A DNA stretch of 62,797 bases, filler included, from 11 parts of 11 records of this genome joined end to end with filler, not necessarily neighbours in it, one strand, 5' to 3'; positions 2-58,054 are shown, counted from the first letter of the whole stretch. The notes: generated by a model not told the origin, from the letters alone. Numbers and translations are program-made.

Positions 2-2890
2 AGTGGCGCTGCGTACGTTCCTCTGGATCCCAGCTGGCCAATTTTCCGAACTGATCACATCCTGCAGATCACGAGCTCGACCGTAGTAACACTTCAGCGA
101 CGGTTTTATAGTCGTCTGAAGAGTGGCCTGTCTCAATGTCGTTGTACAAAAGTATTGTGCTTTGGTGACTCGAACACCTGGGGCTACACGCCCATTTCGG
201 GAAAGCAGATGCCAGAAGCTCACCGTTACCCTACAGTACTCCAACAATTGCTTGGAGAGTCGTTTTCAGTGACGGCTGACGGTGTCAATGGTCGGGCTTG
301 GTGCTCGGCATCTAATCCTGCAGCGGTTGCTCACATCTTTGCACAAGAGTTACAACACGTGATGGTTATTCAACTCGGAACGAATGATGCTGCCAAGGGA
401 CATTGTTTGCATACCATCAGCATTGCTGTTGAAGACGTCATATCAACTGCCAGAGCGTATAATCCTGGTGTCAGAATCATCCTGGTGTCTGCTCCTCCAA
501 TTCTGCCCAACTTCAAGGTGCCGGTTGAATGGAACTATCACCCAGATGCTGCAGCTTTGTCCGATAAGATTTCGGCCATGCTGAAGAGACTTGCAGCATT
601 CCATTCCTGTGATTGGCTAGACGCTGCTCCTATTGTGCACATACCTCAACCTGGCGAGAATAGTGATGGCGTGCACCTGGATGTCCGAGGTGCTCGGGAT
701 CTTGCCGGCGCGATAGCGGATTGCATCCAGGCAATAGAGGTACCGGTGGCAAACACAGAGCTGTTGCTCCTTGAAGACTGTATGAACTCTGTACCAGCTC
801 AAGTTGCAAAACACTGCAGTGATCAATGCACGGAATCACTGGCCTATGTATTATTTACTTCTGGATCAACAGGCCGCCCAAAGGGAGTCATGATAGCAAC
901 ATCTTCGCTTGTTGTATTTTTGCATGCCCACCGAACTCAACTCTTGCCAGGCTTGACGTGCATCGATCGGATCCTCTACACGTTTGCTTCCACCTTCGAC
1001 CCCTCAGTGTTTTCGGTATGGTCCACACTGATGGCTGGTGCATGCTTGATTGTTCCTCGAGCTCTGACAGACATTCATCGCACACTTGGTGAATTGGCGT
1101 GTTCCGCCGCTACCTTTATAGCAATGGCGCCTTCTGTACTGGCTGCATATTTGGCAGCTGGCCAACTATGTTCGACGGTGAAAGCAGTGCTCGTTGGCGG
1201 GGAGGCGTTTCAACCCAATTTGGCGCGCATATTACTGCAGGCAGGAGTCAGAGTGTTGAATGCGTATGGGCCGTGCGAAGCTACAGTTCAATCGCACATA
1301 TTTGAATGCAAGCGACTTGTTGCTGATGAAGCCGATGATCAAGATTGGCCGTTCAACTTTTCTAGGCGCTCAGTGCCAGTTGGCATGCCTCTAGCAAATA
1401 CGACCTGTTACATCCTTGATGTTACACAGCATCCCGTACCTCTTGAAGTTACTGGCGAGATGTACCTACATGGGCCAAAGCTGGCGAGAGGTTATTTGGG
1501 AACTCCACAGAATTACTCTGTATACATGCCCAGACTTGGTCGGCTCTATCGCACAGGCGATCTCGTAAGGTGGCAAGCCTCTGGCGCAGTCGATTTCCTT
1601 GGGCGAGTCGATCACCAGGTGAAACTGAATGGTGTGCGGATAGAGACACGAGAAATCGAGGAAGTCCTAGTTTCTGATCCCCGTGTCTCTGACGCGTTAG
1701 TGATGCGGGTCGACCAGCCTGCTTCATATCCCCATCTAGTTGGATTTGTGACAATGTCGCAAGCAACCAGACCTGTCGAGACTGCAAAAATACGAGCACA
1801 AGCTTCCAAGTGGCTACCAAGCAGTTTAGTTCCCACGGCACTGATTGCGATTGAGGATTGGCCGCTGACACGGTCAGGAAAGATAGATCGAGCTCAACTG
1901 GTCGGCATGATAGCAAGTGTAGAGAAGACAGGCAGCGAAGATGCAAGCGAAATTCAATGCATTGTGCAGCAGATTTGCGAAGAGGTAGTTGGTCATAAGA
2001 TCGGAATCCAAGAAGATTTAATGCAGGCTGGGCTCACATCTCTCAGGGCTGTGGTATTGTTGGCGAAGTTGTCAGCTCAAGGCCTCGCGGTACCTTCGAT
2101 CTCTGCAATTTTAGCTCAACCGACAGTCAGAGAGCTTGCAAATAGCTGCATGGGGCTAGACTCTCCTTTGCCCCCCTGTATTGCACCAACTGACATAGTT
2201 GTGCTGAATGTGCCAAAGAACGTGGTCGGTGATGAAGCAAAATTACCTCCGCTATTTCTTGCAGCACCACTATTAGGATATTCAGCTTGCTACGGTAAAC
2301 TTGCCGGAATGTTTTTTCAAAGGACTGTCTTTGGCTGGGACCATCGAAATGAGGCTGGAATACTTGCTCTTGCGAAGTCATTTGCTGCGAGAATTGAAGC
2401 CACTGCACCTCAGGGGATGATCCATCTGGGCGGATGGTCTCTTGGTGGTCCGATATGTTACTTTGCAGCTTCAATATTACTTGCTGCTGGTCGTGACGTG
2501 CGAGCGATTCTCCTCCTAGATGCTCCCGACCCAGCAATTCTGGACTCTGCAGAACTGCCTCCCGAGCCAGATTTGCATTGCCGTACAACACGATGTCTAT
2601 CTATTAGAGCAACATTAGATGACGATGGCGAACCCCGGTCTGAGTGCACTCATTGGCAACTCGAGGGCGCGCAAATAAGTGTCCATACGCGTCATGACGA
2701 TCTTCTATCTCCTGAGCACCTTCCCGAGATTGCAAAAGCCATGATCAATCACATGGATTCACTTGAAGAACAGACCTTCTCAGAACCCTTGATGCCATTG
2801 AAACTGGAGCCCGAACCATTGATCCTGCCTCTGCTTCCTGCGCATTTATCTGAAGAGCTTGCTCCAGATGGGTTGCTCGATCACCTGTGA
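2..2890 (+). CDS. NRPS-like terminal module: adenylation domain interrupted by an SGNH/GDSL hydrolase, then PCP (T) and thioesterase; 5'-truncated at the window start
   Basis: The frame is open from nt 2. Motifs in order: SGAAYVPLDP (A2, 2-31), LCFGDSNTWG...GTND...DGVH (SGNH, ~150-730), LAYVLFTSGSTGRPKG (A3, ~839-886), FDPS (A4), NAYGPCE (A5), GEMYLHGPKLARGYL (A6), YRTGDL (A7), GRVDHQVKLNGVRIE (A8), SGKIDR (A10), GLTSL (PCP Ser ~2039) and GWSLGG (TE, ~2432). No introns are needed. Confidence 0.93.
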   Translation, partial: SGAAYVPLDPSWPIFRTDHILQITSSTVVTLQRRFYSRLKSGLSQCRCTKVLCFGDSNTWGYTPISGKQMPEAHRYPTVLQQLLGESFSVTADGVNGRAWCSASNPAAVAHIFAQELQHVMVIQLGTNDAAKGHCLHTISIAVEDVISTARAYNPGVRIILVSAPPILPNFKVPVEWNYHPDAAALSDKISAMLKRLAAFHSCDWLDAAPIVHIPQPGENSDGVHLDVRGARDLAGAIADCIQAIEVPVANTELLLLEDCMNSVPAQVAKHCSDQCTESLAYVLFTSGSTGRPKGVMIATSSLVVFLHAHRTQLLPGLTCIDRILYTFASTFDPSVFSVWSTLMAGACLIVPRALTDIHRTLGELACSAATFIAMAPSVLAAYLAAGQLCSTVKAVLVGGEAFQPNLARILLQAGVRVLNAYGPCEATVQSHIFECKRLVADEADDQDWPFNFSRRSVPVGMPLANTTCYILDVTQHPVPLEVTGEMYLHGPKLARGYLGTPQNYSVYMPRLGRLYRTGDLVRWQASGAVDFLGRVDHQVKLNGVRIETREIEEVLVSDPRVSDALVMRVDQPASYPHLVGFVTMSQATRPVETAKIRAQASKWLPSSLVPTALIAIEDWPLTRSGKIDRAQLVGMIASVEKTGSEDASEIQCIVQQICEEVVGHKIGIQEDLMQAGLTSLRAVVLLAKLSAQGLAVPSISAILAQPTVRELANSCMGLDSPLPPCIAPTDIVVLNVPKNVVGDEAKLPPLFLAAPLLGYSACYGKLAGMFFQRTVFGWDHRNEAGILALAKSFAARIEATAPQGMIHLGGWSLGGPICYFAASILLAAGRDVRAILLLDAPDPAILDSAELPPEPDLHCRTTRCLSIRATLDDDGEPRSECTHWQLEGAQISVHTRHDDLLSPEHLPEIAKAMINHMDSLEEQTFSEPLMPLKLEPEPLILPLLPAHLSEELAPDGLLDHL

Positions 2891-9410: not shown

Positions 9411-10311
9411 CTAAATATCGTTATCAATCATCATCTCTTGCAGTTCCTCTGGCGTCAAGCTCAAAATCATGTTGTACGGGTTTGGTCTGTGCTGCCCCAA
9501 AGCTGGTATCTGCATCTGTGAGGGAGCTGGGATCTGCGGGACAGCTGGGATCTGCATCGGCAAGGGAGCCGGGATCTGCGGGACAGCTGGTATCTGCATC
9601 TGCGAGGGAGCCGGGATCTGCGGGACAGCTGGGATCTGTGAGACAGCCGGGACCAGCAGGGTAGGCGGCTGATGCCTAACAGGTTGCGGCATTTGCGCGA
9701 CAGGCTGGGGCTGTGCGGCAAATGGGGACTGCCAGCCAGTAGCATTAACATGAGTGCTTCCCCTTCCTGAAGCCACCGACACAACTGAGCCAGCAGGATA
9801 GGCCTGCTGTTCGACCATCACTGGTTTGACCAGATTGGGATGCAGCATCGAACCTGGCTGCATGCTGGCTGGGAAGGTCGGGACCACATCGCTGAAACTA
9901 GGCTGTACGGCCTGGACGGGCTGTGTGAGTTGCGCTGAGGGTTGTGGTACTGAGGGGGCTTGAAGGGATTGGACATGGCCAGTCGCTAGTGGTAATAAAG
10001 CTGGCTGTGGCGCGACTGCTGTGCTGTTGCTGTTCTCCCCCGCTATCTCGACTCGACCCTCCTCCTTGGGCTTCTTGCCTCCTCTCGCTATCTCGAGCTC
10101 GGTGCGCAGTGCCACAATCTCTTTGGTTTGGTTCAGGACGACAACCTTGAGCTGCTCACACTCCAGCTGCAGATTATTGATCGCCATCCGCTTGTTCGAC
10201 GAGGCATTCGCGGCCTCCCTGCGCTTCCTGGGCCGGCAGCTATCGCACGTGGCTCGGCCTGACACCGGCCCAGTTAGCACGGCAGCTCGGGAGGGGGGGG
10301 GGGGGGGGGGC
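9411..10311 (-). CDS. Hypothetical protein with a basic region, a coiled coil (bZIP-like) and a Pro/Gln-rich repeat tail; 5'-truncated by gap
   Basis: ORF 9411-10280: CDSCRPRKRR followed by heptad LQLECEQLKVVVLNQTKEIVALRTELE, then PQIPA repeats. Confidence 0.55.
9501..9653. repeat. Coding 42-bp tandem repeat, 3 full copies plus a partial (encodes ~VPQIPAPSQMQIPA)
   Basis: Units start at 9501, 9543 and 9585 (agctgg.atctgcatc...gggatctgcgggac), with a partial at 9627. Confidence 0.9.
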
Positions 10312-10411
10312 NNNNNNNNNNNNNNNNNNNNNNNNNNNNNNNNNNNNNNNNNNNNTTAATTAATTAANNNNNNNNNNNNNNNNNNNNNNNNNNNNNNNNN
10401 NNNNNNNNNNN
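10312..10411. other. Artificial contig spacer (N-TTAATTAATTAA-N, 100 bp)
   Basis: Six-frame stop linker between N runs. The same spacer occurs at 16174-16273, 23539-23638, 26870-26969, 30927-31026, 34281-34380, 38942-39041, 42564-42663, 51829-51928 and 57955-58054. Confidence 0.98.
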
Positions 10412-10635
10412 AGCTTGACCACCCGCGTGCACCACTCGAGGCTCGTCCTGGGGAACAGCTCGTGCGTGGTCATCTGTCGGTTCCGGTGCCTAAAAGTGTC
10501 CCTGATGCACGGGTCAGGAGCTCACGCAGATCGGTTGGCTGTCGGTCTTGACACATGGCTAATGAAGGCGGCCCGCTCCTGGCCCAATTGCGGCTGATCC
10601 GGGATAACCAACTCGCCGCGTACCAAAATGATTAA

Positions 10636-12087
10636 CTATTTGCAGCCCGAATCTTTGCACGCTTGTAGGGACGGGAAGTTGCCCTCCACCGGCCCCCAGT
10701 TCGGCCAGCTGCTATTGACATTCACCGGTGCGTCTAACGGGATGCACACCGGCCACGGGAAGCGAATGACCGAGCCAAACTGGTCAGTAGCATTGCGCTT
10801 GCAGCCGTATCGCATTACCGGCACTGGCGCTGCCTCGCGGTGATCTCTCGAGCCACCGGCTGCAACACGTCGTCGACACCGGGTAGACCGGGTGAAAGTG
10901 ACATTCGGGCAGATGCTGCCGTTGGCCATTGCGCTGCAGTTACCACAATGGCCGTTCTGCTTGATGTCCCGGAATTCCACATTCCAGACTTTGGGCAGGT
11001 AACGGTTGTCAGGCGCGGCTTCCCAGTTAGTGGTCCCAGCGTAGTTGCTGAAGCTGATGCCGCGTGGGTTCGTAATGTTTTCAAAAACTACGTCATGTAT
11101 GTACCCACCGCCACCTAATGCGCCTAGCAGCGACAGACCTCGCTCCCCCTCCAGAATTGAATTCCGGAACGTCACATTCCTCACCCCGCCAGGCTGGATT
11201 CCGACGCGGAAGCCACCACGACCGCCAGCCGGGCAGCTGATGTTTTGGACGAGCACGTTTTCGGTTGGAATGGCAAGGTTCATCCCAAACTCCCAGGCAC
11301 CAGAGTTCATGCAAATCCCGTCGTCGCTGTTTTGAATCACAATGTTCTCGATGAGCGCGTCACGGCTCGAAGATATATCGATTCCATCAGTGTTGCCAAT
11401 GGTGTTGATCGGAGCGAGGATCACGAGGTCACGGATCCTGATATTCTGAGAGTAAGTCGGGGTTAGCGTCCAGAAGGGAGAATTCCGAATTGTGAGCGGT
11501 CGCGCCGCTGAAGATCCAAACACATTGAGCCCGTTAACGAAGGTGAACTGTAGCAGCATTGGCCGGCCGGCTGTGAGGCAGCTCGAGTTGGCGTCGGGCC
11601 AGTCTCCAATGGGCGGCTTGTAGTGACACTTAGTGCACCGCGCCCACCAACTTTGCCCTCGCCCGTCGATGGTGCCGCTGCCCGTCACGGTTACGTTCGA
11701 GGCGTTCCACGAGTTGACGATGCTCTGATAGTTGAGCGCCCCCGGCACAATCTCGTCTATCAGGTCTGGGAAGCAATTTGAGTCTATACTCCAGCCGTAG
11801 CTCATCAGCGGGGCAACCATCGGGTAGTCTGCCGTGTTAGTAGATGCCAGGAGCGTACCGTCGACCACGAGTACCTGATTCGAGGTCAAGTTCAGCGGTC
11901 CAGTGAGGAAGCTCCCGCCAGCCGGAAGCCGCACCTCGTCGCACGCCTCCAGCGCCCTCCTGATGGCCAGCGTGTCGTCGTGCTCTGCGTCGCCCACTGC
12001 GCCGAACGCCGTGACGTCACACGCACGCCACGCAGTGCCAGTGGTGCAGCACGCACAGGAGAGCAGCAGCAGCAGACCAGTCCTCAT
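10636..12087 (-). CDS. Secreted glycoside hydrolase family 28 (polygalacturonase-like), intronless
   Basis: Signal peptide MRTGLLLLLSCAC, then DVTAFGAVGD...DDT.AIRRA, FLTGPLNL, GSGTIDGRGQSWW, RP, NSPFW, NTDGID and DDGI. Confidence 0.88.
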   Translation of the reverse strand: MRTGLLLLLSCACCTTGTAWRACDVTAFGAVGDAEHDDTLAIRRALEACDEVRLPAGGSFLTGPLNLTSNQVLVVDGTLLASTNTADYPMVAPLMSYGWSIDSNCFPDLIDEIVPGALNYQSIVNSWNASNVTVTGSGTIDGRGQSWWARCTKCHYKPPIGDWPDANSSCLTAGRPMLLQFTFVNGLNVFGSSAARPLTIRNSPFWTLTPTYSQNIRIRDLVILAPINTIGNTDGIDISSSRDALIENIVIQNSDDGICMNSGAWEFGMNLAIPTENVLVQNISCPAGGRGGFRVGIQPGGVRNVTFRNSILEGERGLSLLGALGGGGYIHDVVFENITNPRGISFSNYAGTTNWEAAPDNRYLPKVWNVEFRDIKQNGHCGNCSAMANGSICPNVTFTRSTRCRRRVAAGGSRDHREAAPVPVMRYGCKRNATDQFGSVIRFPWPVCIPLDAPVNVNSSWPNWGPVEGNFPSLQACKDSGCK

Positions 12088-12201
12088 CGCGTCTCCCGGC
12101 CACGCTCAGTGCTCACCTGCTGATTTTGATTTTTATTTATTTTTATTTTCCACACAAGATCGCATCTCTCACCAGGATCAGTGGGGCTGGTGCGCGAGGG
12201 T

Positions 12202-13731
12202 ATGCGGACGATGCGCCCGGTGGGGTTGGTGCTGCTGTGGGCCGCTGCCGGATGCGTGGGCCAATCGCCCGACCCGCTGCTAGCCCTCTCGCAGAAGGCG
12301 GCGCTGGCCGACCAAGAGCCGGTGCCAAAGACTCTGCCGGAGATCCCCAAACCGCTCAACCTGGACCGCTCAACCGACAAGCCGGCCTACTCCTACCACG
12401 ACATCGCAGGGTTTGTGCTCGAGGGGCATACCGAGAAGCCCAAGCACAGCCTGATGGGCTGCCAAGCCGTCTGCGACGCGGTGCACAAGTGCCGGTCTTT
12501 CTCCTTCAGGGATCAGGACGGCGCCTGTGAGTGGTCTGAGCACACAATGATGTACGACCCCACCTGGACCTTCGCCTCGCGTGGGATTAAGATCGACCCT
12601 ACTGGCCGCGAAGTGCGCTCGGAAAAGTTTCACACCTTCCCCGGAATGGTCGCGCCAGAGCATTACAAAAAGGAAGTCGGCCTCAACCAGGACGATTGCT
12701 ACGATACGTGCAAGGAAGACCAGCGGTGCAATGCTTTCAGCTACCACGAAGGAAATCTGGAGTGCCTGCTGTCGACCGCGGGTTTGAAATATGATCCAGC
12801 ATTCACGTATTATGAGAATGAGCAGCGGATCTCCCCCGATCCAGCAGCATTGCTTTTGATTGAATCTCGAATGCTACTGCTTTCAATCTGAGCCGCCGTT
12901 GTACGTCTTCAGCATCTGCCAAGCTGTGCCTGGTGACGGAGACTTGCTTTTTAGTCATACGCTCATCATCAGCCTTCTGGGCTGTCTGCTTTGACTGCTT
13001 CTCACTTTTCTGCAGTTTCATCTTGATAAGAGCTGACTTTGAGGATTTCTCTTTGTCCAGCCTGACCTTTGCAGTGCCAACACTCTCGTGGCTCTTGTGC
13101 ACAGCCTCTTTGTACTCCCCTTGCTCTTCGGCGGCCTTGGACGCCTTAGCGACCCGCATTTCACGCTTCCGTGCCTTTTCCTCTGCGGCCTTTTCTGCCT
13201 GTTTCTTTTGCGCTGCCTCCTGTGCCAGCCTTGTCATCCGGGCTCGTACTGCCTCTTTCTCTTTGTACAGCTTTTCCGCTTCATGCTCACGCTTTCGGCG
13301 GAGGCCACGCTGCAACTTGGCTTCGTTGCGCATTTTCGCTTCATCCTGGAGCCGGATCTTCGTATTCGCCTTTCTTTCGATGCGCCACAGATCAGCGTGT
13401 CAGCACAGGTCGCGCGATGCCAGGCGAGCTTGAGAGGTTAAAAGAAGAATCTCAGTTGAAGAGCAAGTTGCACCAATTGAAACAAGCTGCTTCTAAGGTC
13501 GAGCATCAGGCGGGCGACGAGGCTGACACATTCAAACTCGAAATGAGAGTAGCTAAACGTCAACAACTTGACGAGAAAGAAATGAGGAGACGGGAAGTCA
13601 TGGCACAGAAGGCGACTGCAGAAAAGGAGGTGAAAGCAGCACGTGCCAATGCTGACAAAATCGCTGAAGCTGCAGAGCATAAGGAACTTAAGAGCAAATC
13701 GGACCTTCGACTTTTAGAATCATACAGATAG
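12202..13731 (+). CDS. Secreted 2x PAN/apple-domain protein with a K/E-rich coiled-coil tail; interrupted as assembled by an inversion of 12842-13389
   Basis: Signal peptide and two PAN repeats (CQAVCDAVHKCRSFSF...C; CYDTCKEDQRCNAFSY...C). Flipping the segment between GATC 12838-12841 and GATC 13390-13393 gives a stop-free ORF to TAG 13729-13731. Confidence 0.8.
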
Positions 13732-13945
13732 GCTTAAGTAAGACGGGCTCGTCGTGTCATGGATTTGAGAGATTCGATGCAAGGACGAGCCATCTTGATA
13801 ATAAAACCAATGATAACTTCATATTGCTTGCATGAACTTACGTGCAAGCTAGATTGATTACGATCATGTACAATCAGTCATGGCTTGAAGAATTTAATTG
13901 TAATACTTAACGTGGTTACCGACGATGCAATTGAATTATTTGTAG

Positions 13946-16173
13946 TTACGATATAGCGTGGTTTGATTGGCGTTTGACATATTGGAGCAAGAAGAACAAA
14001 GTAGATGGCCGGATTCCAGGTAACCTGCCACGGAAGCTACATTGTCAACACCTGCACTAACTATAACTAGAGACACAACTCGCCTATTTGCGGCGCCCAG
14101 AGTGGCTGGTTGAGCCCGTTCGAGCAGCTGCCGCTCTTCCATCGATATGGAGTCTAGAGAACGGTACGGCAAATCATGGGGCAGCTGGAGACTCTCGTCC
14201 ACCCGCAGCTGCTCCACTTGCTTATCCTGCCTGTCCCCACAAGCCTTCACCTGACCGCATGGCCAGAATCAGCACCTGTCAAGGTACTGCTGATACTGAC
14301 AAATGACCTCGAGCTGCTGCTTCACCTGGCACCCAACACTCGGCCAGTTCCTCGGGCACCAGCCAGCACCGCTTCTGGCAACGTACGGATCTGATCGAGC
14401 TCGGGCTCCACCGCCGTCATCACGTCTCCCAAGCTCAGCTCCTGCGCCGCCAGCACCTGCCACAGACCAGTCACACAACGCTCCAACTGGCCGCACCTTG
14501 GCAGCGCTCCGCCGTTCGCCGTCTAGTTTGACTTGAATCCCGGCTGCCCGCCAAGCCGTGGGCGAGAGCGCACAGCCGGCCAGCAAGTCCATCCCGTGGT
14601 CTATCTGCTCCTGCTTTGTCCGTGTGCGGCTCGCGTCGACAAGCGAGCAGGACGCCGCTAACTCAGCCAGTCGCAGGTCGGCGTTATCGGCCCTGAGGCT
14701 CAGTCGGTACTCGGCTCTTGAAGTGAACATCCTGTACGGCTCGGTCACCCCAGTGGTAACTAGGTCATCCACCAGCACGCCTGCTCCAACTCAGCTGCAC
14801 ATACCCGACCGTGCTACCTGCCATCGAGTTGCCCCGATCGAGCGCAAGTGCCCGGCCCGAAGAGTCGCAGGCCAGTGCCGCGTTGGCGCCTGCTATTAGC
14901 CCTTGGATCCCGGCTTCTTCGTACCTGCCGCCTTGCTCACATGGAGCACCGGCTCAGCAACAACCCGGTAGTGCCATTAATCTGCCCGGCTAAATATAGC
15001 CCGGGTATCCGCTTTGACTCGAGCGAGTGCCGCAGCTCGCGGGGGTCGCAGTATTCATATTCGACAGCATAGCCGGGCTGGAGCACCTGCAATCAACACC
15101 TAAGTTGTGGCTGTCTGCCACCGGTGGCACCTTGGCGTGCTCTAGCCCTGGTATGCTTCGTACCACACGATGCTGCGCCTCCTCCCCTAGTGACGTGGGT
15201 AGCCCAGCCGGATAAACCACCGGCGAGTTCCTCCCTTCCGGCTCCAGCCACACGTGATGCCTCCGACCGGGGAAACGCTGGCATTTCTTCTCGATAGACA
15301 CACAGTATCTGCCGCCCGGATCACGCACGACCCCGGCCCGAGGCACCGGGGCGAGTTTCCAGCCCTGCCGAACGAGTCTTGGCTCTCAAATTGGGCTAAT
15401 TGGCCCGGGGCTTGCAGCGCTTCCAGCACTACTCGTTCGGTCTCCTCTGAGGTCCAACTCAGGTGGCAAGGCTGCAACTGCTGATTCACCTGAGCCGGCT
15501 CAGCGTACACCAACCGGCAGGCCCGCACCACATTGGGCAGGGCTGTCCAGTCGCTGCCGAATGACATGCAGCTCGGTGGGTCATCGCTCTCTTGCACAGT
15601 CAGCTCCGAATAATCTATCGAACTCTTCTCCAGACGCGGCGGCGTGCTCGTAGAGAGCCGCCCAAGCGGGAATCCAGCCCGCTCCAGCGTGTCGGCCAGC
15701 CCTATGGCCGGTGCCTCGCCCATCCGGCCGGCCGGCCAGCTTTTGGGGCCGCAGTGGATCACGCCTCGCAGGAAGGTGCCGGTTGTGAGCACCACCTTGC
15801 GGGCAGCGATCCGGCGGCCGTCGTTGAGCGAGACCCCGGCCACCCGGCCGTCCGGCTCGAGCAGCAGGTCGAGCACCCCGCCCTCGACCACGCTCAGCCG
15901 AGGCTGGGCGCTGATCATCTGCTGCATGGCGGTATGGTACTGGGCCCGGTCGGCCTGCACTCTGGGCCCGTGCACCGCGGGGCCTTTGGACCGATTGAGC
16001 ACCCGGAACTGTATCGCAGCCAGGTCAGCAGCCCGAGCCATCAGCCCGCCCATGGCGTCGATCTCGCGCACCAGTGTGCCCTTGGCCACACCGCCGAACG
16101 AGGGGTTGCAGGACATCACCCCGAGGTCGCCGGCCCGCTGGGTGCACAGCCCGACCTCCGCCCCCACCCGCGC
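13946..16173 (-). CDS. MTO1: tRNA uridine 5-carboxymethylaminomethyl modification enzyme MnmG/GidA (MTO1), multi-exon, 5'-truncated
   Basis: [70 protein letters not shown] and [25 protein letters not shown] across short introns. Confidence 0.93.
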
Positions 16174-16273
16174 NNNNNNNNNNNNNNNNNNNNNNNNNNN
16201 NNNNNNNNNNNNNNNNNTTAATTAATTAANNNNNNNNNNNNNNNNNNNNNNNNNNNNNNNNNNNNNNNNNNNN

Positions 16274-23378: not shown

Positions 23379-23669
23379 TTCAACGGATTGGCAGGCAACG
23401 AATACGGTATTGAGTAGGCAACCAGTCAGCTGCCAGTCCAGATCTAAAGACCTGTTACATACATGTAGATCTATATTCTATGACGGCAAAATCGCCTTCC
23501 TGATATATGTAACTACAAACGATCTAGACTTGCAACGCNNNNNNNNNNNNNNNNNNNNNNNNNNNNNNNNNNNNNNNNNNNNTTAATTAATTAANNNNNN
23601 NNNNNNNNNNNNNNNNNNNNNNNNNNNNNNNNNNNNNNTGAAATTGAAGTATTTGCGTCGAAATCTTAA

Positions 23670-26777: not shown

Positions 26778-26969
26778 CGGACCGTCCGCGTGGCGTCGGG
26801 CCGGTAGTCCGTTGCCGTTGGCTGTGTAGGCAAAACACAAACGCAAAAGCCAGTTTTCGCGGTGAGCTGNNNNNNNNNNNNNNNNNNNNNNNNNNNNNNN
26901 NNNNNNNNNNNNNTTAATTAATTAANNNNNNNNNNNNNNNNNNNNNNNNNNNNNNNNNNNNNNNNNNNN

Positions 26970-30926: not shown

Positions 30927-31026
30927 NNNNNNNNNNNNNNNNNNNNNNNNNNNNNNNNNNNNNNNNNNNNTTAATTAATTAANNNNNNNNNNNNNNNNNN
31001 NNNNNNNNNNNNNNNNNNNNNNNNNN

Positions 31027-34280: not shown

Positions 34281-34494
34281 NNNNNNNNNNNNNNNNNNNN
34301 NNNNNNNNNNNNNNNNNNNNNNNNTTAATTAATTAANNNNNNNNNNNNNNNNNNNNNNNNNNNNNNNNNNNNNNNNNNNNTCGGAGCACCGTCTGTGTCG
34401 GAGCACCGTCGGGCACGCCGCGGAGAAAATAAAAATAAAATAAATCACGAGACTTCATTGACTTGCCTCGCTCGGGCATCTTCAACCTAGAGAC

Positions 34495-35640: not shown

Positions 35641-38600
35641 TTAGGCTGAAGCGTACCAGAGGTTAGATATCTCCTTCTGCTCAGTGATCTTGTCTGCTTT
35701 CAGGTTTTTGCGCCAGTTGTTGAGCATATTTAATGTGAGCATTTGTTGCCACTTCACAAACGTTCTACTGAGCATGCTCAGGCCACTGTCCATATTTGAT
35801 TGCGATTTGGCCTTGGAGCAAACATTCATCCTCCACGTGCTGAGTAGATTACTGACTGACCTCTGCTGCCAGTTGTTCATGGTCCGACTTATCATGCTCA
35901 GTCCATTCTTCATTGGAAGCGGAGAGCCGGGACCATGACTAGCCATTAAGCGACCTCTCCACTGATCTACCTCTAGATTCAATTGCCACCTGGTGATGGC
36001 CTGACGATAGCCATGCTGCCACATGCTGTGCAGTAAACGGCGGACAGCATGCATCCCGTCCTCGATGCTCTCCAATTTGGCTACTGTGCTACTGTTGACA
36101 ACCATCTGGGAGATGGCTCCCTGTATGCTTGCACTGCGGAGCCAATTGCTTACCGCTCGTAGGCATCGGCTCCATGAATTCCACTGCACTGCCAGGCCCA
36201 TCCAGCGGGTTGCGAGCGAGAGCGTCAACAGCTTTAGCTTGTATAGCTGGAGCTGTTTGAAGATGTCATAGTCTTTATTGATCTGCCAGTTCATCACTGC
36301 ATGGCTCATACCTTGCTGCCAGAAAGTGCGCAGTAACGAGCTACGAGCGAATGAGCTCACAGCACTTGCCAACCGCCACTGCCAGACCAACCGCATAGTA
36401 CGTATCTGATCGTCACTGAGAGTCGTCCCTCTCAGCAGAGCAGACACGAAAGATTTCATAATGGCAGGGCCTCGTTGGGCCGGCTGTGCAACCTGCTGTT
36501 TCTTCAAGGCAGCCTGCTCTACCCGTAAAGACCAGCTGTTCCATGCTGCCGACAGAGCGCGATGCATCATGTGAGCCAAGGCAGCCACTAGCTGCTGCTT
36601 CTGCTCAATAATTTGCGCTGAATGGTCATGTAGCACGACCCAAGCTTCCTTGAGTCGTCTACTTTTGAATAGAGCCTGCAGTAAGATCCTAGTCCCAAGC
36701 ATGACCGGAGCTGTCTCCTGAGCTTCGTAGCAAACCTCTCGCCATTTGTTCCACGATCGCAGTACTTGTGTATTCGCCGCTATCCTCATTTGCAAAGCGG
36801 CATGTCCTGCATCGGCCGCTGCATCTCTCCAGGTTTGCAGACTCCTAGCCTGCCATAAGTTCATCATCCTCAGCAAACCCTTCCGAGCTGTATCCTCTTG
36901 TGCAGTGGCCTCCATGGCGTCTGTGCGCCAAGTGTTCCATGCCGCTTGCAATGCCCTTGTGCACAACATTTGCACAGCACGAGCTAGCCCTGTGCTCCCA
37001 TCCCTAAGCTGCGTTACAAGAAGTCTCCACTGAGTGAAGCTTCCAGCAAGTCTAGTTTGTGCAGAATTGATCCACAAGTTGAGCCAGCCATTCAAGCCTT
37101 TTTGCATGACCTCTTTCCTTGCATTCTTGTCCAACAGAACTTCATACCACGAATCCCAAGCAGCTGCAATGGCCCGTAACCTCATACGTTTCAATGCACG
37201 CGCATGTCTCTGCATCCTTTCGTTCAGCTCCTCCACGCATTCACTCCAGGTGGAAAAAGCTGCTGCTAGCTTTGACTTCATCATCCTCATCAGCATTTTT
37301 CTCAGGAAATTCTCTGCCTCGCTGGCCTCTAGGAAAACACTATGCCATTTATCAAATGCGGCTGACAATGCCCGATTCTTCATCCGTATCAGGATACGCT
37401 GAAGCCTCTGCTCAGCACCCTTACGCTCCGACACGATTTCCTGCCAAGTCTCAAATACAGCTGACAGAGCCCGGTGCATCATGCGCTTCATCGCTCCCAA
37501 CATCCGTCGCTTCTGTTCCACAAGCTCCTCGGCCCAGTCCCGCCAGCTATTCCATGCTGCTGACAGAGCCCGATGCATCATGCGCCTCAAGGCAGATGCT
37601 AACCTCTGCTTTTGCACTTTTGCCTCAGCAGCCTGACCGCGCCAAAGATCAAAGCAAGCTGTAAGCTTCCACTTTGCACTGCGGAGCAGAAGCATGTTGA
37701 CCCGACGCATCACAGCAACGTTTGTTACCAGGTCCAGCTGCCTCTGTTCCTTATAAAGTTTTCTCCAGGCTTCCCAAGTGGCAGAGAAATTGTGAGCAAA
37801 CATGTGGGCAAGCATGTGGACTACTTTCCTCCTTCTTTCTATAACTGCAACATCCCCAGACTCCAGGGCCAGTGAGAATGCCTCCCTCGCCTCTTGCAGC
37901 ATTTCTGTGGTGCGCGGATCCTGGAAAGAGGTCCAGCATATTGCAGCAGGGTTCTTCTTGCTAGCTTTGGCATGTTCGCGCCACCTGGAGACCAAGAACA
38001 GCAATTCAAAGAATCGACCTCGATTACAGTCGTGTAAAGCAGCCAACCATAGTCTCGCGTAGTGATGCATTGTATCTGAAACACCCACAGTGTAATGCGC
38101 ATAGCGGAGCTCCAGGTGGCAGTTGAGCTTCCATTGGTGCAGGTACTGACTAATACCGGCCCAGTAATTCATTTTCCATTGCATTGTTGCTGTCAGCAGC
38201 ACCTGGTGGTAGCGCACATCTGCTGCAAGCCGTATAAAATTCACATACATCTTGCGCAGCCGGGAGCAGAGCAGAGAAGCCTGCATATCTCGAACCGCCC
38301 TTTGTATCTCCAGAACTTGTCCATGCCGCATCATGTTCACTAGCATAGTTACCACAGCCCGATGCGACATGCGTGTGAAGCGCCTCCCTGAGCGCTTCAA
38401 TTGAGTTCCTAGCTTAGATCTCTGAAAGTTCTGGATCATGCATTGCATTGCCGAGAGCTGCGTATGCTGCTGCACTTGAGCCAACATCTGGGTGGCTGCA
38501 CTGTGCCTCAAGTCTCGTATGTTAGTGCTGAGCTTCATGTCTTTTGCAAAAGCTTGCAAGCTCCTCACCGCTCGCTGCAATGTTGAAGTCTGCGCTCTCA

Positions 38601-38941
38601 GTAGCATCCGCATCAGCATCTTGCCCACAGCCTTATCCCTCAAGTCCCGCATGCCGGAATTCAATGCTGCGTGTTGCAGCCTTCTCACTACGCGCTGTAC
38701 TAGACTCGTCCGAGCTTGTTTCAGTATACGCATTAGCATCTTGCCCACAGCCTTGTCCCTCAAGTCTCGGTGCCCGTCACTACGCATGCCCTCTTGCAGG
38801 CTCCTCACTGCTTGCTGCAACGCAGATGTCTCCGCCTGATGCAGCACTCGCGACAGCATCTTGCCCACTGCTGTGCCTTTCAGGCCTTGCAGCTTGGCAA
38901 CTTTTGCACCTTCCTGCAGCCTCCTCACCACACGCTGCACC
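35641..38941 (-). CDS. Sfi1-like Trp-repeat helical protein, intronless, 5'-truncated
   Basis: 1099-aa ORF with recurring RMMHRALSAAWNSW / AAFDKW / AAFSTW motifs at ~33-aa spacing. N-terminal 40-aa repeats (agcatcttgcccac at 120-bp spacing). Confidence 0.6.
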
Positions 38942-39041
38942 NNNNNNNNNNNNNNNNNNNNNNNNNNNNNNNNNNNNNNNNNNNNTTAATTAATTAANNN
39001 NNNNNNNNNNNNNNNNNNNNNNNNNNNNNNNNNNNNNNNNN

Positions 39042-42000
39042 CGCATCCGAGCCTTTTCATCTTGCTCGTTCCACTGGAGATCAGTAGGCCGTGCCTTACT
39101 TTCAGGCTTGGCCTTGGACGGCAGCTTGATCTCCCCACTGAGCAACATCTCTGCCCTCTTCTCCATGGCATCTAGGCTCGGCCTTCGTTTCCTCTCAGAG
39201 GGCGACAGGCTGGTCGAGCCCCTCGTATAAGTATCTGCACGCACAACAGCATCAGTAAGAGCCCATCTGTGCATTCTAACACGGCCTACCTGTACGTCGC
39301 GCTATTCCTCCCGCTGCCTTCGAGTCGCCAGCACTCAACTTCTTCTGATCCGCGACCAACTGCCTGGCTTCTTGAATCCCTCGCAGCGTGTCCGCCTCAT
39401 CCTGCGACAGCACGCCGTCGCTATTCACATCGAAGGTCTCGAAGTCTTTTGCTGTGCCGCCAGACGCAATGAAAGCGTCACGACCCATTCCAACAGCCGG
39501 GCCGTCGCGCGAGCGGCCCGACAGGCTAGTGACCTGCAACCCGGAGGTGGTAGTGGCCCGAGCCTGCGCTCTCTTCCTCCGCTCTTCTGCCACACTGTTT
39601 TGAGTCGCTTCTGCAGCGAGCTTCCTATCAGCTTCAGCAGGCCTATTGCCCAAGCTCGCTCTGCGCTTCTGCGTTGCGGCTTTCCTCTCTTCTGCAGCCT
39701 TAGCCCATTCATGCGCCTTCTTCATCTCCTCCGAAGCCCGTGCTTGCGCCTCCGATTTTCTCTTCTCAGCTGCTTCCTTCGCCCTCTCCATCGCCTTGAC
39801 GTTGTCCTCTACCTTCCTCTGTGCTGCCACTGCATCAGCGCGCTTCTCGGCTACGCTCGGCTCGGCCTTGTTCTCAGCAGCCTGCCTGGCTTCAGAGATT
39901 GCCCTCCGTTTTGGTGAGACCCCGAGCCCTTCGATCCCAAGCCTTGACCGGCGTTTCTCCTCCTCGACCTGCATCACCACGGTTCTCTTGTGAACCGTAT
40001 CCATCTGCTTTCCAGCTTCGGCCATGGTATCCTCCAAATGCTTTCTATCAGCAGCGGCTGCCACTGCTGCAGCTTGAATTTCCTCCAGCAGAGTGTCACT
40101 GCCTGATTCTACTTTTTGTGCAAGAGCAGCTTCAGCTTCTTCCATGGCCATTCTCTCAAGCTTCAGCTGCTCATACTGCGCACGCTGTTGCTCGTATTGC
40201 GCACGTTGCCCTTCAAGTTTCTCTTCTTCAACGCGATTTTCAGCAGCCAACTGCTCGGCGGCGGCGCGCTTCTGCTCTTCCACTCTCTTTTTTACGAGGG
40301 CTTGATGCACATGAGCCTCGCGCTCGCCATGCTCCAGCCTGTCTTTTGCGCTTACCTTGTCATCAGCAGCATACTTGCGTTCAAGTACTTGAGCTTTGAG
40401 AGAAGCTCGATACTCAGCTGCTCTCTTCTGCTGCTCGAGGGCAGCAGCCTTGATTGCTGCTGCTTCTTCAGCTGCCCGCTTGCGATCCTCCTCCCACTTG
40501 GCCTCAGCTGCTGCCCATCGTGCCTCATCTGCCCTTTGGCGTGCGGCCCCCTGCTTTGCCAGCCTCTCTTTCCTCTCTGCAGACCTTTGGTCGGAAATGG
40601 AATACTGTTGTGTGTGTCTCTCACGTGCGGCTTCGGACTTGGCTACCTCTGCCTTCGATCTCACACTCTGTAGCGCGTCGAAGCGTGCGGCAGACCTCTT
40701 CTTTCTGGCATCTTCCTGCTGCAGTAGGGACTCCAGTCTCGACGCCTGGCGCATTGCCTTCTGTGAAGCAGTCATCCACTCGTCAGCTTCCTCGTCGTCC
40801 ACTATACCGGCTTTGGCCTTGAGAATTGCTTCGCCATGAAGCATCATTGCCTCCTCTTCTTTGGCAAGCATGGCATCCGCATTCCGGCGCTTTCTCTCTT
40901 GAGCTTCAGCTGTTATGACCAACGATGCCTTCCGTTTCTCTTCCTCAAATCGGGCCACTGCTGCTATCTCTCTATCCTGAGCGGATAGTTTTGACATTAC
41001 CTTATCCTCTGACTCGGCTTGCAGCCTCTGCTGCTCCGCCAATGTATCCGTTGCGGTGGGTGACTGCCTAAGAGTCAATTCTTTGACAATCATATCCTTT
41101 TCCATGAACTTTTTGGCTTCTTGCAGGATTGAGGCCTCATCTGCGACCATCGAATGTTGCATTTCCTTCCTCCTGTCACGCGCCTTTGATATTTCTTCTT
41201 CCATTGACAGCTTGGCAGCCTCAGCCAGCTTCTCTTCCTCCTCCATCAGCCTTTGCGCCTCCTCCGCCAGCCTTTCGGATTCAGCCTCCCGTGCTTCTTG
41301 CTCCAGACGTTTGTCCTCCATCAGCTTCTTCCTAGCTTGCTCCATCTCCTCTGCGGACATGCCGAGCCTTGGAGAGTTCTCTGGAGTGCCCGCTCTCGAT
41401 CCGCGCCGCGAGTGTGACCGGCTCCGTCTGCCTTCCTCCTCTTTGACCAAGGCATCCCAAGCAGTCGCGTGCCGAGCAGCCCTCTCTGTGGCATCCCGCC
41501 AATCGTCATTTGTATGAATCTTCTCTTCTAGATCACCAATTCTGCGATCGTGAGACAGATCTGCCTCGATCTTGTCATCCATGCGTGTTTTGACGACAGC
41601 TCGTGCGTAATCTGTTGATGAATTTGTATCAGCATGAATCTGATCCTCAAAACTGGCCCACGAATCCATGTCTGTTTTGAATGACGCAACCTCTGCATTG
41701 ACAGCAGCATGGGCATTTTCACGAGCAGAAAGCCTTGGCGAAGACCGCCGTTCAATCTCTCTCTCCAGCTCATCGGCCTTTGCCTTTAAGGCCTTCCTTT
41801 GGCTCCTGGGCGACGAAATCATCTCTTCTTGAACTTGGCAAAGCTCAGAGTTCAGATTCTTGAGTTTACTCACATCAAGAGGAGGAACAGGACTCCTGCT
41901 GCGCTTCACAACTATGACCTTAGTTCCGAACACAGGCATTGTTGCTTCTTTGTCCTCAGGACTAAGATCCTGGCAAACCGGATCAGCATGCAGCGTATTC

Positions 42001-42563
42001 AGGCAGTAGACCTCCTCAGCGGAGTAGCTGCCACCCAGGCTTGTGATCTCTGCTGTAAGCTGCACCGTGGGCAAGTCAGAAGGTTGTTCGCAAGTGGCCA
42101 CGCACCGTCGTAATCCGCTCATTGATCTTCTTCAAGCGCTCTTCTGCTCCCTCATCAGCTCCACCTTGCCCCATTTGACTGGTGAGGATTGCTCGCTCGC
42201 GTTTCAGTCCATTTGCAAGATCAACAAGAGTCTCACACCGAGTTGTATTGATAGCTTCCTGCACAGAATACAAAGTGTGAGAGTGCACAGGGGGCTGGCT
42301 AACCTCCTCTGGCGAAAGAGGCACGTCTTCAGTCATAGAAGCATCCTCCGCTTGTGGTGATTGAGCTTCGTCTGCAACAGCAGGCTCTGCCTTCTGCTGC
42401 TCAACTGGCTTTGGCATAGGTGGAGGCCGACTCTTAGCAGCAGAGCGAGATCTTGGAGGAGCGCCACCTTGAGACCTTGGTTCAGTTGAAGCCAGATCGT
42501 AGGATGCCGCCTTGGGCTCCTGCGGATGCTGTACATTTTCGAGTCCAGCCTTGATCTCAGTCA
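39042..42563 (-). CDS. Large coiled-coil protein with one EF-hand, partial, few introns
   Basis: 948-aa E/A/K/R-rich ORF with FDVNSDGVLSQDE. Adjacent ORFs join through GT-AG introns near 42060-42105 and 42260-42304. Confidence 0.65.
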
Positions 42564-42663
42564 NNNNNNNNNNNNNNNNNNNNNNNNNNNNNNNNNNNNN
42601 NNNNNNNTTAATTAATTAANNNNNNNNNNNNNNNNNNNNNNNNNNNNNNNNNNNNNNNNNNNN

Positions 42664-51828: not shown

Positions 51829-52107
51829 NNNNNNNNNNNNNNNNNNNNNNNNNNNNNNNNNNNNNNNNNNNNTTAATTAATTAANNNNNNNNNNNNNNNN
51901 NNNNNNNNNNNNNNNNNNNNNNNNNNNNAGTAAATGAAACTCACGATTAGAAAACAACTGTGATAAAACTCAGGTCATGAACGATCGGCATCATTCGTGT
52001 AAAACACATCCAATGGCCCGAACGGCTAAATAAATTTATTTTTATTCATCTAAAGTGGATGGCGCCCCATGTAGGGGCGCCGTCATGTAGGGGTGTCTAG
52101 TTGTGGT

Positions 52108-57920: not shown

Positions 57921-58054
57921 AACTCAACAATTTCATTCCACTCGGGATCAACGCNNNNNNNNNNNNNNNNNNNNNNNNNNNNNNNNNNNNNNNNNNNNTT
58001 AATTAATTAANNNNNNNNNNNNNNNNNNNNNNNNNNNNNNNNNNNNNNNNNNNN

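What the first reader, a model, noticed from the sequence alone, without database searches (positions are those of the whole stretch)
12838..13393. Exact GATC-bounded 548-bp inversion inside a PAN-domain surface-protein gene
Seen: the + strand PAN ORF runs out after ...EQRISPD. A K/E-rich coiled-coil ORF lies on the opposite strand (12803-13333), and similar coiled coil resumes on + in the original frame after 13390. Reverse-complementing 12842-13389, between GATC at 12838-12841 and GATC at 13390-13393, gives ...RISPD|LWRIERKANTKIRLQDEAKMRNEAK...SKAMLL|DQRVSTGRAMPGELERLK... This is one stop-free ORF of about 509 aa from ATG 12202, with no base gained or lost. Only the 4-bp palindrome is shared between the ends, and one internal GATC (13355) is unused. 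Inference: three explanations are possible. It may be a library or assembly artefact (Sau3AI/DpnII religation, amplification chimera), a recent microhomology inversion that truncates the gene, or an invertible switch between a short secreted 2xPAN form and a long stalked form. Artefact has to be excluded first.
Basis: partly seen in the sequence, partly recalled or inferred. Interest (0 to 1): 0.72.

Follow-up and report, generated by a model that had tools for sequence, protein, structure and literature searches.

The report
Flipped middle of a PAN-domain gene
The middle 0.54 kb of an otherwise intact gene for a secreted two-PAN-domain protein lies backwards in this draft assembly, which is either an assembly or library error or a very recent gene-breaking inversion, and very probably not a genetic switch.

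Summary
The sequence facts are confirmed. GATC lies at 12838-41 and 13390-93, and reverse-complementing 12842-13389 gives one 509-aa open frame from 12202.

ORF continuity alone proves little, because 6,998 breakpoint pairs do the same. The real proof is homology. A profile of five environmental homologues, built without the window, is tiled in order by the three as-assembled frames: + strand nodes 18-211, - strand nodes 220-401, + strand nodes 397-505. So the un-inverted order is ancestral.

The flip is clean and young. There are no stops in the displaced pieces, and GC3 falls smoothly only in the un-inverted order.

"Exactly GATC-bounded" is not established. Homologues prefer a right breakpoint at 13382-13384. 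Yet a frame-compatible GATC pair this close arises by chance in only 0.13% of trials.

No flanking inverted repeat or recombinase was found, so a programmed switch is unlikely (about 0.03).

Sequence alone cannot separate artefact (about 0.5) from a real recent lesion (about 0.4). The window is 11 short contigs, and no reads or same-species records were reachable.

No membrane anchor was seen, so "surface" and "stalked" are unsupported.

The parts
12202..12841 (+). Piece A: start codon, signal-like N-terminus and two PAN/apple domains, up to the left breakpoint
   Evidence: Pfam PAN_1 2e-14, two stretches. Matches family profile nodes 18-211, 171.6 bits, E 4e-54. N-terminal hydrophobic stretch.
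12838..12841 (.). Left GATC, at or next to the left breakpoint (candidate left ends 12842-12846)
12842..12891 (+). 16 codons plus a TGA that end the as-assembled product. They are read from the antisense of the flipped piece.
   Evidence: There is no homology beyond ..RISPDPA.
12842..13389 (-). Piece B: the inverted segment, which codes on the - strand for the first two long helices of the tail. The right end is 13389 by the GATC reading and 13382-13384 by the homologue reading.
   Evidence: Family profile nodes 220-401 without a gap, 109.3 bits, E 3e-35. blastp against P0003 gives 1.6e-16 and against P0014 3.3e-16. Purine-skew change points at 12829 and 13378.
13355..13358 (.). Internal GATC inside the inverted segment, not at a junction
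13390..13393 (.). Right GATC.
13384..13731 (+). Piece C: the last helix of the tail and the stop codon TAG at 13729-13731, in the same frame as piece A
   Evidence: Family profile nodes 397-505, 27.8 bits, E 1.6e-10. The alignment begins at the residues coded from 13378. blastp against P0009 residues 447-472 gives E 0.002.

Best explanation
SHOWN. The locus is one gene of an uncharacterised family known here only from unnamed database records. The one homologue looked up, P0003, is a JGI 'hypothetical protein' on a 1,614-bp contig. The family architecture is a signal-like N-terminus, two PAN/apple domains, and a K/E/R/A-rich tail of about 290 residues predicted as three long helices. In this record the middle 541-548 bp lie in reverse orientation, and the un-inverted order is the ancestral one. 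As it stands, the + strand gene would give a 229-aa product: 213 native residues with both PAN domains, then 16 nonsense residues. The coding sequence for the whole tail is cut off from it.

INFERRED. This is a single clean cut-and-flip with no detectable loss or gain, and too young to have left decay. It is not a programmed switch.

MY COMMITMENT ON ORIGIN (inferred, weakly). The flip more likely arose outside the cell than in the organism. Candidates are re-ligation of a fragment in a GATC-cutter library, a double template switch during amplification, or a mis-oriented piece in a fragmentary assembly. I put this at about 0.5, against about 0.4 for a real lesion.
For: Ancestral order:
- The search of protein representatives with the PAN part found 223 proteins at E<=1e-3, 59 at <=1e-10 and 3 at <=1e-30.
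- Many of the 13 fetched are 416-554 aa, with 2 PAN domains followed by a K/E-rich tail.
- The - strand piece hits 5 of the 150 listed proteins at E<=1e-3, always downstream of their PAN part: P0003 residues 231-372, P0014 120-276, P0009 314-443, plus P0028 and P0010.
- Piece C hits P0009 at 447-472, directly after piece B's match.
- A 522-node profile of 5 homologues, built without the window, is tiled by the as-assembled frames at nodes 18-211 (+), 220-401 (-) and 397-505 (+).
- These are the only 3 hits among 347 ORFs of the window.

Youth and cleanness:
- Pieces B and C have no stop in 295 codons. The chance of that falls to 0.05 at 6.3% neutral divergence.
- GC3 falls smoothly in the un-inverted order: 0.85, 0.82, 0.66 | 0.63, 0.62, 0.53 | 0.53, 0.41.
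- Piece B aligns to 182 profile nodes without a gap.

For an origin outside the cell:
- The window is 11 contigs of about 3-10 kb joined by spacers, so the assembly is fragmentary.
- A frame-compatible GATC pair within 7 nt of both breakpoints occurs in 0.13% of random trials. GATC is the site of common library enzymes (my own knowledge).
- MDA chimeras are mostly inverted joins primed on 2-21 nt of complementarity (PMC1855051, abstract).
Against: Against an artefact:
- The flip is balanced. There is no N, gap, duplication or deletion at either junction.
- No fold-back or inverted repeat of 30 nt or more exists anywhere in the window. MDA chimeras typically carry an intervening deletion, and a mis-oriented contig in a scaffold normally leaves gaps or overlap scars (my own knowledge).
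- An in-place flip of a restriction fragment needs the same three neighbouring fragments to re-ligate, which is improbable in a whole-genome library (inference).
- If the homologue-preferred right breakpoint (13382-13384) is correct, the restriction-site logic fails. That reading scores 11-13 bits higher in the profile and wins pairwise in 7 of 8 homologues.
- Contig ends show no restriction half-site pattern.

Nothing in the sequence itself shows an error.
Confidence: 0.5

Rival explanations
1. A real, very recent inversion in the organism's genome (a truncating allele, possibly polymorphic or heterozygous). Two double-strand breaks were made and the middle piece was rejoined backwards. If the breaks were at the two GATCs, the ends could be 4-nt cohesive overhangs of identical palindromic sequence, as topoisomerase II leaves. 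Such ends religate in either orientation without loss. If the right break was at 13382-13384, it is ordinary end joining with 0-1 nt of microhomology.
For: - The junctions are clean and balanced, with no assembly scar.
- The rest of the contig reads well: an intact GH28 ORF, an intact PAN part, and GidA/MTO1 exons with GT..AG introns.
- TOP2 breaks processed by TDP2 give 4-bp cohesive 5' overhangs. These occasionally religate to a distal break with the same 4-bp overhang, giving junctions with 4 bp of perfect homology (PMC5550487, passages).
- The GATC pair is a 0.13% coincidence otherwise.
- Short records ending right after the PAN domains exist, for example P0001 at 221 aa. A PAN-only product may therefore be tolerated, unless those records are fragments.
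Against: - A gene-breaking inversion with no decay at all is a rare class of variant.
- There is no independent record of the same species to show it. The search for homologous proteins found nothing of 125-2000 aa sharing words with the PAN part.
- The assembly is fragmentary.
- Known natural microinversions between human and chimpanzee are 17-33 nt long and are flanked by perfect or near-perfect inverted repeats, which are absent here (PMC8755829, abstract).
Confidence: 0.4
2. A programmed invertible switch that toggles between a short secreted 2xPAN form and the full-length form with the helical tail.
For: Both orientations keep every piece intact. The as-assembled orientation still encodes both PAN domains behind the signal-like N-terminus. 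The same 4-bp palindrome lies near both ends.
Against: - No inverted repeats beyond 4 bp lie at the ends. Equally good or better 5-6 bp inverted matches occur at other frame-compatible positions by chance.
- No recombinase domain was found in the contig's other genes, which are GH28 and GidA, or in the 16 large ORFs scanned elsewhere in the window.
- DNA at the breakpoints folds no better than shuffles (z -1.06 and +1.52).
- The organism is a eukaryote with 40-44-nt spliceosomal-type introns. I know of no such gene-internal inversion switch in eukaryotes (my own knowledge).
- None of the 13 homologues fetched shows an antisense-coded tail.
Confidence: 0.03
3. There is no inversion. Instead there are three unrelated ORFs: a short PAN gene, an antisense K/E-rich gene and a third small gene. 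Their frames merely happen to line up.
For: Such ORF triples are common in this window: 5 in the same frame and 8 in other frames. Antisense frames of K/E-rich coding are often open.
Against: The three frames tile one family profile in order, at E 4e-54, 3e-35 and 1.6e-10, with piece B gapless over 182 nodes. The B-to-C hand-over falls within 5 profile nodes (397-401).
Confidence: 0.01

Closest known systems
Small gene-disrupting inversion, or an 'inversion' misjoin in a draft assembly
   Same: A segment of a few hundred bp in reverse orientation inside an otherwise collinear gene. Relatives show the un-inverted order.
   Different: The junctions are unusually clean: no gap, duplication or deletion, and only a 4-bp palindrome near the ends.
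Restriction-fragment re-ligation in a GATC-cutter library (Sau3AI, MboI, DpnII; enzyme names from my own knowledge)
   Same: GATC near both ends, no base gained or lost, and an internal GATC left uncut as in a partial digest.
   Different: Homologues place the right breakpoint 6-7 nt inside the right GATC. An in-place flip needs a three-fragment re-ligation. The library type is unknown.
Topoisomerase-II-type rearrangements with 4 bp of perfect junction homology (PMC5550487, passages read)
   Same: Cohesive 4-nt ends that religate without processing to a distal break carrying the same 4-nt sequence. Two identical palindromic overhangs would allow a loss-free flip.
   Different: The published cases are translocations in drug-treated human cells, not a sub-kilobase inversion. 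Nothing here shows TOP2 involvement.
MDA chimeras (Lasken and Stockwell 2007, PMC1855051, abstract read)
   Same: Inverted joins primed on 2-21 nt of complementarity. Short contigs like these would fit an amplified sample.
   Different: More than 85% of MDA chimeras are inverted joins with an intervening deletion. Here the flip is balanced with two reciprocal junctions, and no fold-back repeat exists in the window.
Bacterial invertible-DNA switches (Hin, Gin and Fim type; from my own knowledge)
   Same: A DNA segment whose orientation decides which protein form is made.
   Different: Those switches have defined inverted repeats and a dedicated recombinase. Neither was found, and the host here is a eukaryote.
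Tandem-apple (PAN) lectins of coccidian micronemes: Sarcocystis muris SML-2 and Toxoplasma MIC4
   Same: Two consecutive PAN/apple domains. By sequence, 4a5v_A (MIC4) matches at E 0.0017. By fold, 2yil (SML-2) matches at E 1.6e-3 with probability 0.99 for the model of homologue P0003.
   Different: Weak similarity (10-16% identity, no Foldseek E<=1e-3). Those proteins lack the ~290-residue helical tail. Sugar binding is untested here.

Membership tests
PAN/apple domain proteins (Pfam PF00024) | Match to the PAN_1 model above its curated cut-off | tested here: met
   53.6 bits against a cut-off of 21.4, E 2e-14, two stretches. PAN_4 and PAN_2 also match.
Environmental '2xPAN + long helical tail' family (P0003, P0009, P0014, P0010, P0028) | One continuous ORF with the PAN pair followed by the collinear tail | tested here: not met
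   As assembled, the ORF stops at 12889-12891. The three pieces do tile the profile in order, but piece B lies on the other strand. Membership by descent is met; the intact architecture is not.
Programmed DNA inversion switch | Inverted repeats at both ends of the invertible segment | tested here: not met
   Only the 4-bp palindrome is shared. No inverted repeat of 14 nt or more brackets the segment. Chance 5-6 bp inverted matches occur elsewhere.
Programmed DNA inversion switch | Site-specific recombinase encoded nearby | tested here: inconclusive
   None was found on the contig (GH28 and GidA only) or in the 16 large ORFs scanned. The contig is only 5.8 kb, and the other contigs need not be neighbours.
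Programmed DNA inversion switch | Both orientations present in one population | not testable with these tools
   No reads are available.
GATC-cutter re-ligation artefact | Both junctions exactly at GATC | tested here: inconclusive
   This reading is compatible with an open frame, and a GATC pair this close is a 0.13% coincidence. But it ranks 59th of 821 against the family profile and loses pairwise in 7 of 8 homologues.
GATC-cutter re-ligation artefact | Library made with a GATC cutter | not testable with these tools
   The origin of the record is unknown. Contig ends show no half-site pattern.
MDA chimera | Inverted join with an intervening deletion or fold-back | tested here: not met
   The flip is balanced and gapless against the profile. 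There are 0 inverted repeats of 30 nt or more in the window.
Scrambled germline gene of ciliates (from my own knowledge) | Segments separated by non-coding spacers, and a ciliate genetic code | tested here: not met
   The pieces abut with no spacer. The genes read through in the standard code and end in TAG or TGA.

The most novel reading that the evidence does not exclude
The flip happens in living cells at the two GATC palindromes. Either it is a loss-free cut-and-flip by an enzyme leaving 4-nt cohesive ends (topoisomerase-II-like or an endonuclease), or it is a true eukaryotic invertible switch that turns a long-tailed PAN protein into a short secreted PAN lectin-like form and back.
Probability: 0.04. 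Interest if true: 0.8.

Novelty: new member of a known kind. Interest (0 to 1): 0.25.

Why it matters
Mostly as a caution. An annotator would call a 229-aa PAN protein, a spurious antisense "coiled-coil" gene and a third small ORF, where relatives show one gene of about 509 aa.

If the flip is real, it is a cleanly datable loss-of-tail allele in a gene family whose nearest structural relatives are adhesive lectins. If it is an artefact, it flags the assembly.

Only if both orientations coexist in cells would it be important, because gene-internal inversion switches are not known to me in eukaryotes.

A side result is the family itself. The PAN part of the query found 223 database proteins at E<=1e-3. 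The full 2xPAN plus helical-tail architecture was verified in a handful of them. My one literature search found no description of it.

Tried and rejected
1. ORF continuity as proof. Rejected: 6,998 of 120,000 breakpoint pairs work. Inverting between palindrome pairs often keeps frames open (1,322 hits in 47,989 pairs). ORF triples are common.
2. Long inverted or direct repeats at the ends. None found.
3. Hairpins at the breakpoints. DNA folds are no better than shuffles.
4. Splicing rescue. I read 12800-12891 and 13345-13393 for a donor and acceptor that would skip the flipped piece in frame. There is no GT between 12808 and 12891, and the one candidate at 12807 is out of frame with an acceptor at 13389 (reading). 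Rejected.
5. Heptad-register continuity to choose between the two breakpoint models. Inconclusive: the homologues themselves split into +1 and +3.
6. A paralogue or second allele in the window. None; the family profile hits only the three pieces.
7. Same-species or close records.
   - The search for homologous proteins found nothing in the near or longer length ranges. That index misses relatives at about 39% identity even though it holds P0003.
   - Both genome-contig scans confirmed 0 of 238 and 0 of 26 pattern matches.
   - The Atlas gave only generic PAN clusters at 0.77 or below.
8. Rfam gave no hit.
9. Literature.
   - On small inversions as misassemblies: PMC4214606 passages were read and nothing was usable.
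   - On the protein family: I looked at the top 8 of 240 listings and none was relevant.
10. Ciliate-style scrambled gene. Rejected: no spacers, and the standard code applies.

Full report
1. WHAT THE WINDOW IS

The 62.8-kb window is not one molecule. Ten spacers of the form N44-TTAATTAATTAA-N44 join 11 contigs of about 3-10 kb. The finding lies in the contig 10412-16173.

That contig also carries:
- a GH28-type glycosidase gene on the - strand (10636-12087; Pfam 1.3e-19);
- a GidA/MnmG/MTO1-type gene on the - strand (Pfam 1.5e-69 for 15190-16167).

The GidA-type gene is interrupted by two very short GT..AG introns of 44 and 40 nt (my reading, with the frames). The source is therefore a eukaryote with tiny introns. 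I did not identify it further.

2. THE OBSERVATION

- GATC lies at 12838-41 and 13390-93, with an internal GATC at 13355.
- The + ORF from 12202 ends at 12889-91.
- A K/E/R/A-rich ORF lies on the - strand.
- The original + frame is open again downstream.
- Reverse-complementing 12842-13389 gives a single 509-aa frame.

The argument from the open frame is weak, however.
- The downstream frame equals the upstream frame one time in three by chance.
- The third condition, the sum of the two breakpoints modulo 3, can be met by choice of breakpoints.
- 6,998 of 120,000 pairs tried give a stop-free frame.
- Null tests show that open frames after inversion and three-ORF patterns are common in this GC-rich window.

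3. WHAT SHOWS THAT IT IS AN INVERSION

An exhaustive HMMER search with the PAN part found 223 relatives at E<=1e-3. The library carries no names. The one homologue looked up, P0003, is a JGI "hypothetical protein" on a 1,614-bp contig.

Many of the 13 homologues I fetched are 416-554 aa. They have a signal-like start, two PAN domains, a "YYE(N/R)" motif and then a K/E-rich tail.

The window's - strand piece is homologous to that tail:
- P0003 residues 231-372, E 1.6e-16;
- P0014 residues 120-276, E 3.3e-16;
- also P0028, P0009 and P0010;
- in all, 5 of 150 proteins at E<=1e-3.

The downstream + piece matches P0009 at 447-472, directly after the - piece's match at 314-443.

The cleanest test used a 522-node profile of five homologues, built without the window. 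It was searched against the as-assembled stop-to-stop frames:

| Piece | Strand | Coordinates | Profile nodes | E-value |
|---|---|---|---|---|
| A | + | 12130-12888 | 18-211 | 4e-54 |
| B | - | 13399-12806 | 220-401, gapless | 3e-35 |
| C | + | 13150-13728 | 397-505 | 1.6e-10 |

These are the only three hits among 347 ORFs of the window. The ancestral gene therefore ran A-B-C on one strand.

4. AGE AND CLEANNESS

Pieces B and C (295 codons) hold no stop. Given their codon content, the chance of that falls to 5% at 6.3% neutral divergence.

Third-position GC falls smoothly along the un-inverted order, and the steps across both junctions are nil: 0.85, 0.82, 0.66 | 0.63, 0.62, 0.53 | 0.53, 0.41. 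In the assembled order the series is broken.

The event is recent, or it never happened in the cell.

5. WHERE THE BREAKPOINTS ARE

With it, the read-through has two extra residues at the first junction and lacks two at the second. This is relative to homologues that otherwise align without a gap over about 180 columns.

The six bases 13384-13389, read on the + strand, supply exactly the two missing residues. Piece C's profile alignment begins upstream of the GATC.

Scores for the alternatives:
- 821 distinct stop-free read-throughs were scored against the profile. The best was (12843, 13382) at 356.6 bits.
- (12842, 13383) scored 354.7 bits.
- The GATC pair scored 343.8 bits, rank 59.
- Pairwise BLOSUM62 scores prefer (12842, 13383) in 7 of 8 homologues, P0008 being the exception. 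With another gap cost the count is 6 of 8 plus a tie. Three of the eight were not in the profile.

Against this, a frame-compatible GATC pair within 7 nt of two random breakpoints 541 bp apart occurs in only 0.13% of 200,000 trials. For any of the 16 four-base palindromes the figure is 2.6%.

The two lines of evidence are of similar weight and point in different directions. I leave the right breakpoint as 13382-13389. Purine-skew change points (12829, 13378) agree with either reading.

6. MECHANISM

(a) A programmed switch is unlikely.
- There is no inverted repeat beyond 4 bp.
- There is no unusual DNA structure at the breakpoints.
- No recombinase domain was found in the neighbours or in the 16 large ORFs scanned.
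- The host is a eukaryote.

(b) A real one-off inversion is possible. If it occurred at the GATCs, identical palindromic 4-nt cohesive ends would explain a loss-free flip. Such ends are what topoisomerase II leaves, and they are known occasionally to religate to a distal break with the same overhang (PMC5550487, passages). If the right break was at 13382-13384, it is plain end joining.

(c) An artefact is possible.
- The assembly is fragmentary.
- GATC is a common library site.
- MDA makes inverted joins on short complementarity (PMC1855051, abstract).

Each artefact route fits poorly in detail.
- The flip is balanced and scar-free.
- No fold-back repeat exists in the window.
- An in-place restriction-fragment flip needs a three-piece re-ligation.

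Weighing base rates (my own judgement, not a computation), I give artefact about 0.5, real lesion about 0.4, switch about 0.03, and the rest to more complex histories.

7. THE PROTEIN

As assembled, the product would be 229 aa: both PAN domains plus 16 residues read from the antisense of the flipped piece.

The AlphaFold2 model of homologue P0003 was built from a 14-row alignment and has mean pLDDT 76.5 and pTM 0.35. It shows two PAN domains (residues 48-183, pLDDT 83-94) and three long helices (196-279, 286-380, 386-459). The break at 380-385 corresponds to the region of the second junction.

The nearest solved relatives are tandem-apple lectins:
- MIC4 by sequence, E 0.0017;
- SML-2, factor XI/prekallikrein and MIC4 by fold, with best E 1.6e-3 and none at or below 1e-3.

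No hydrophobic segment lies in the tail. A secreted, possibly sugar-binding protein is a reasonable inference. A membrane-anchored "stalk" is not supported.

8. VERDICT

The inversion in the record is real and is now proven against relatives. Its biological reality is undecided, and either ordinary explanation is of low interest. The exciting reading, a switch or an in-vivo GATC cut-and-flip, survives only at a few percent. Read mapping or one PCR would settle it.

LIMITS
- No reads, no same-species record and no genomic context of the homologues were available.
- No supplementary files were consulted.

Noticed in passing
window 10312-10411, 16174-16273, 23539-23638, 26870-26969, 30927-31026, 34281-34380, 38942-39041, 42564-42663, 51829-51928, 57955-58054: Ten identical spacers (44 N, TTAATTAATTAA, 44 N) with stops in all six frames. 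The window is therefore 11 short contigs strung together, not one contiguous locus. GC content differs between contigs, from 49% to 65%.
   Followed up: yes
window 14269-16173, - strand: A GidA/MnmG/MTO1-type gene that runs off the contig end. It is split by very short GT..AG introns of 44 nt (about 15083-15126) and 40 nt (about 14924-14963). A third frame change near 15340-15390 has no GT..AG pair that I could find. It may be a non-canonical intron or a 1-nt consensus error.
   Followed up: partly
window 10636-12087 (-) and 12088-12201: A GH28-type glycosidase gene with a signal-like start lies head to head with the PAN gene. They share a ~115-bp spacer that holds an AT-rich run at about 12124-12150.
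   Followed up: no
window 35644-38940 (-) and 39279-42131 (-): Two very long open frames (1,099 and 951 aa) on neighbouring contigs have no Pfam match. The first has internal repeats with 99-nt and 120-nt spacing. Strand composition is strongly skewed here, with GC skew about -0.19 and AT skew down to -0.29.
   Followed up: no
window 9501-9638: A 42-nt tandem repeat of 3.3 copies at 90% match. It lies inside a 314-codon open frame (9411-10355, -) that has no Pfam match.
   Followed up: no
window 10282-10311: The contig ends in a G run of about 18 bases, and the contig starting at 26970 begins with a C run. Contig breaks at homopolymers may say something about the sequencing chemistry.
   Followed up: no
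P0002 (database homologue, 303 aa): After the PAN pair, its tail turns R/K/P/S-rich instead of K/E/A-rich and stops early. This looks like a frameshifted copy of the same tail in that record.
   Followed up: no
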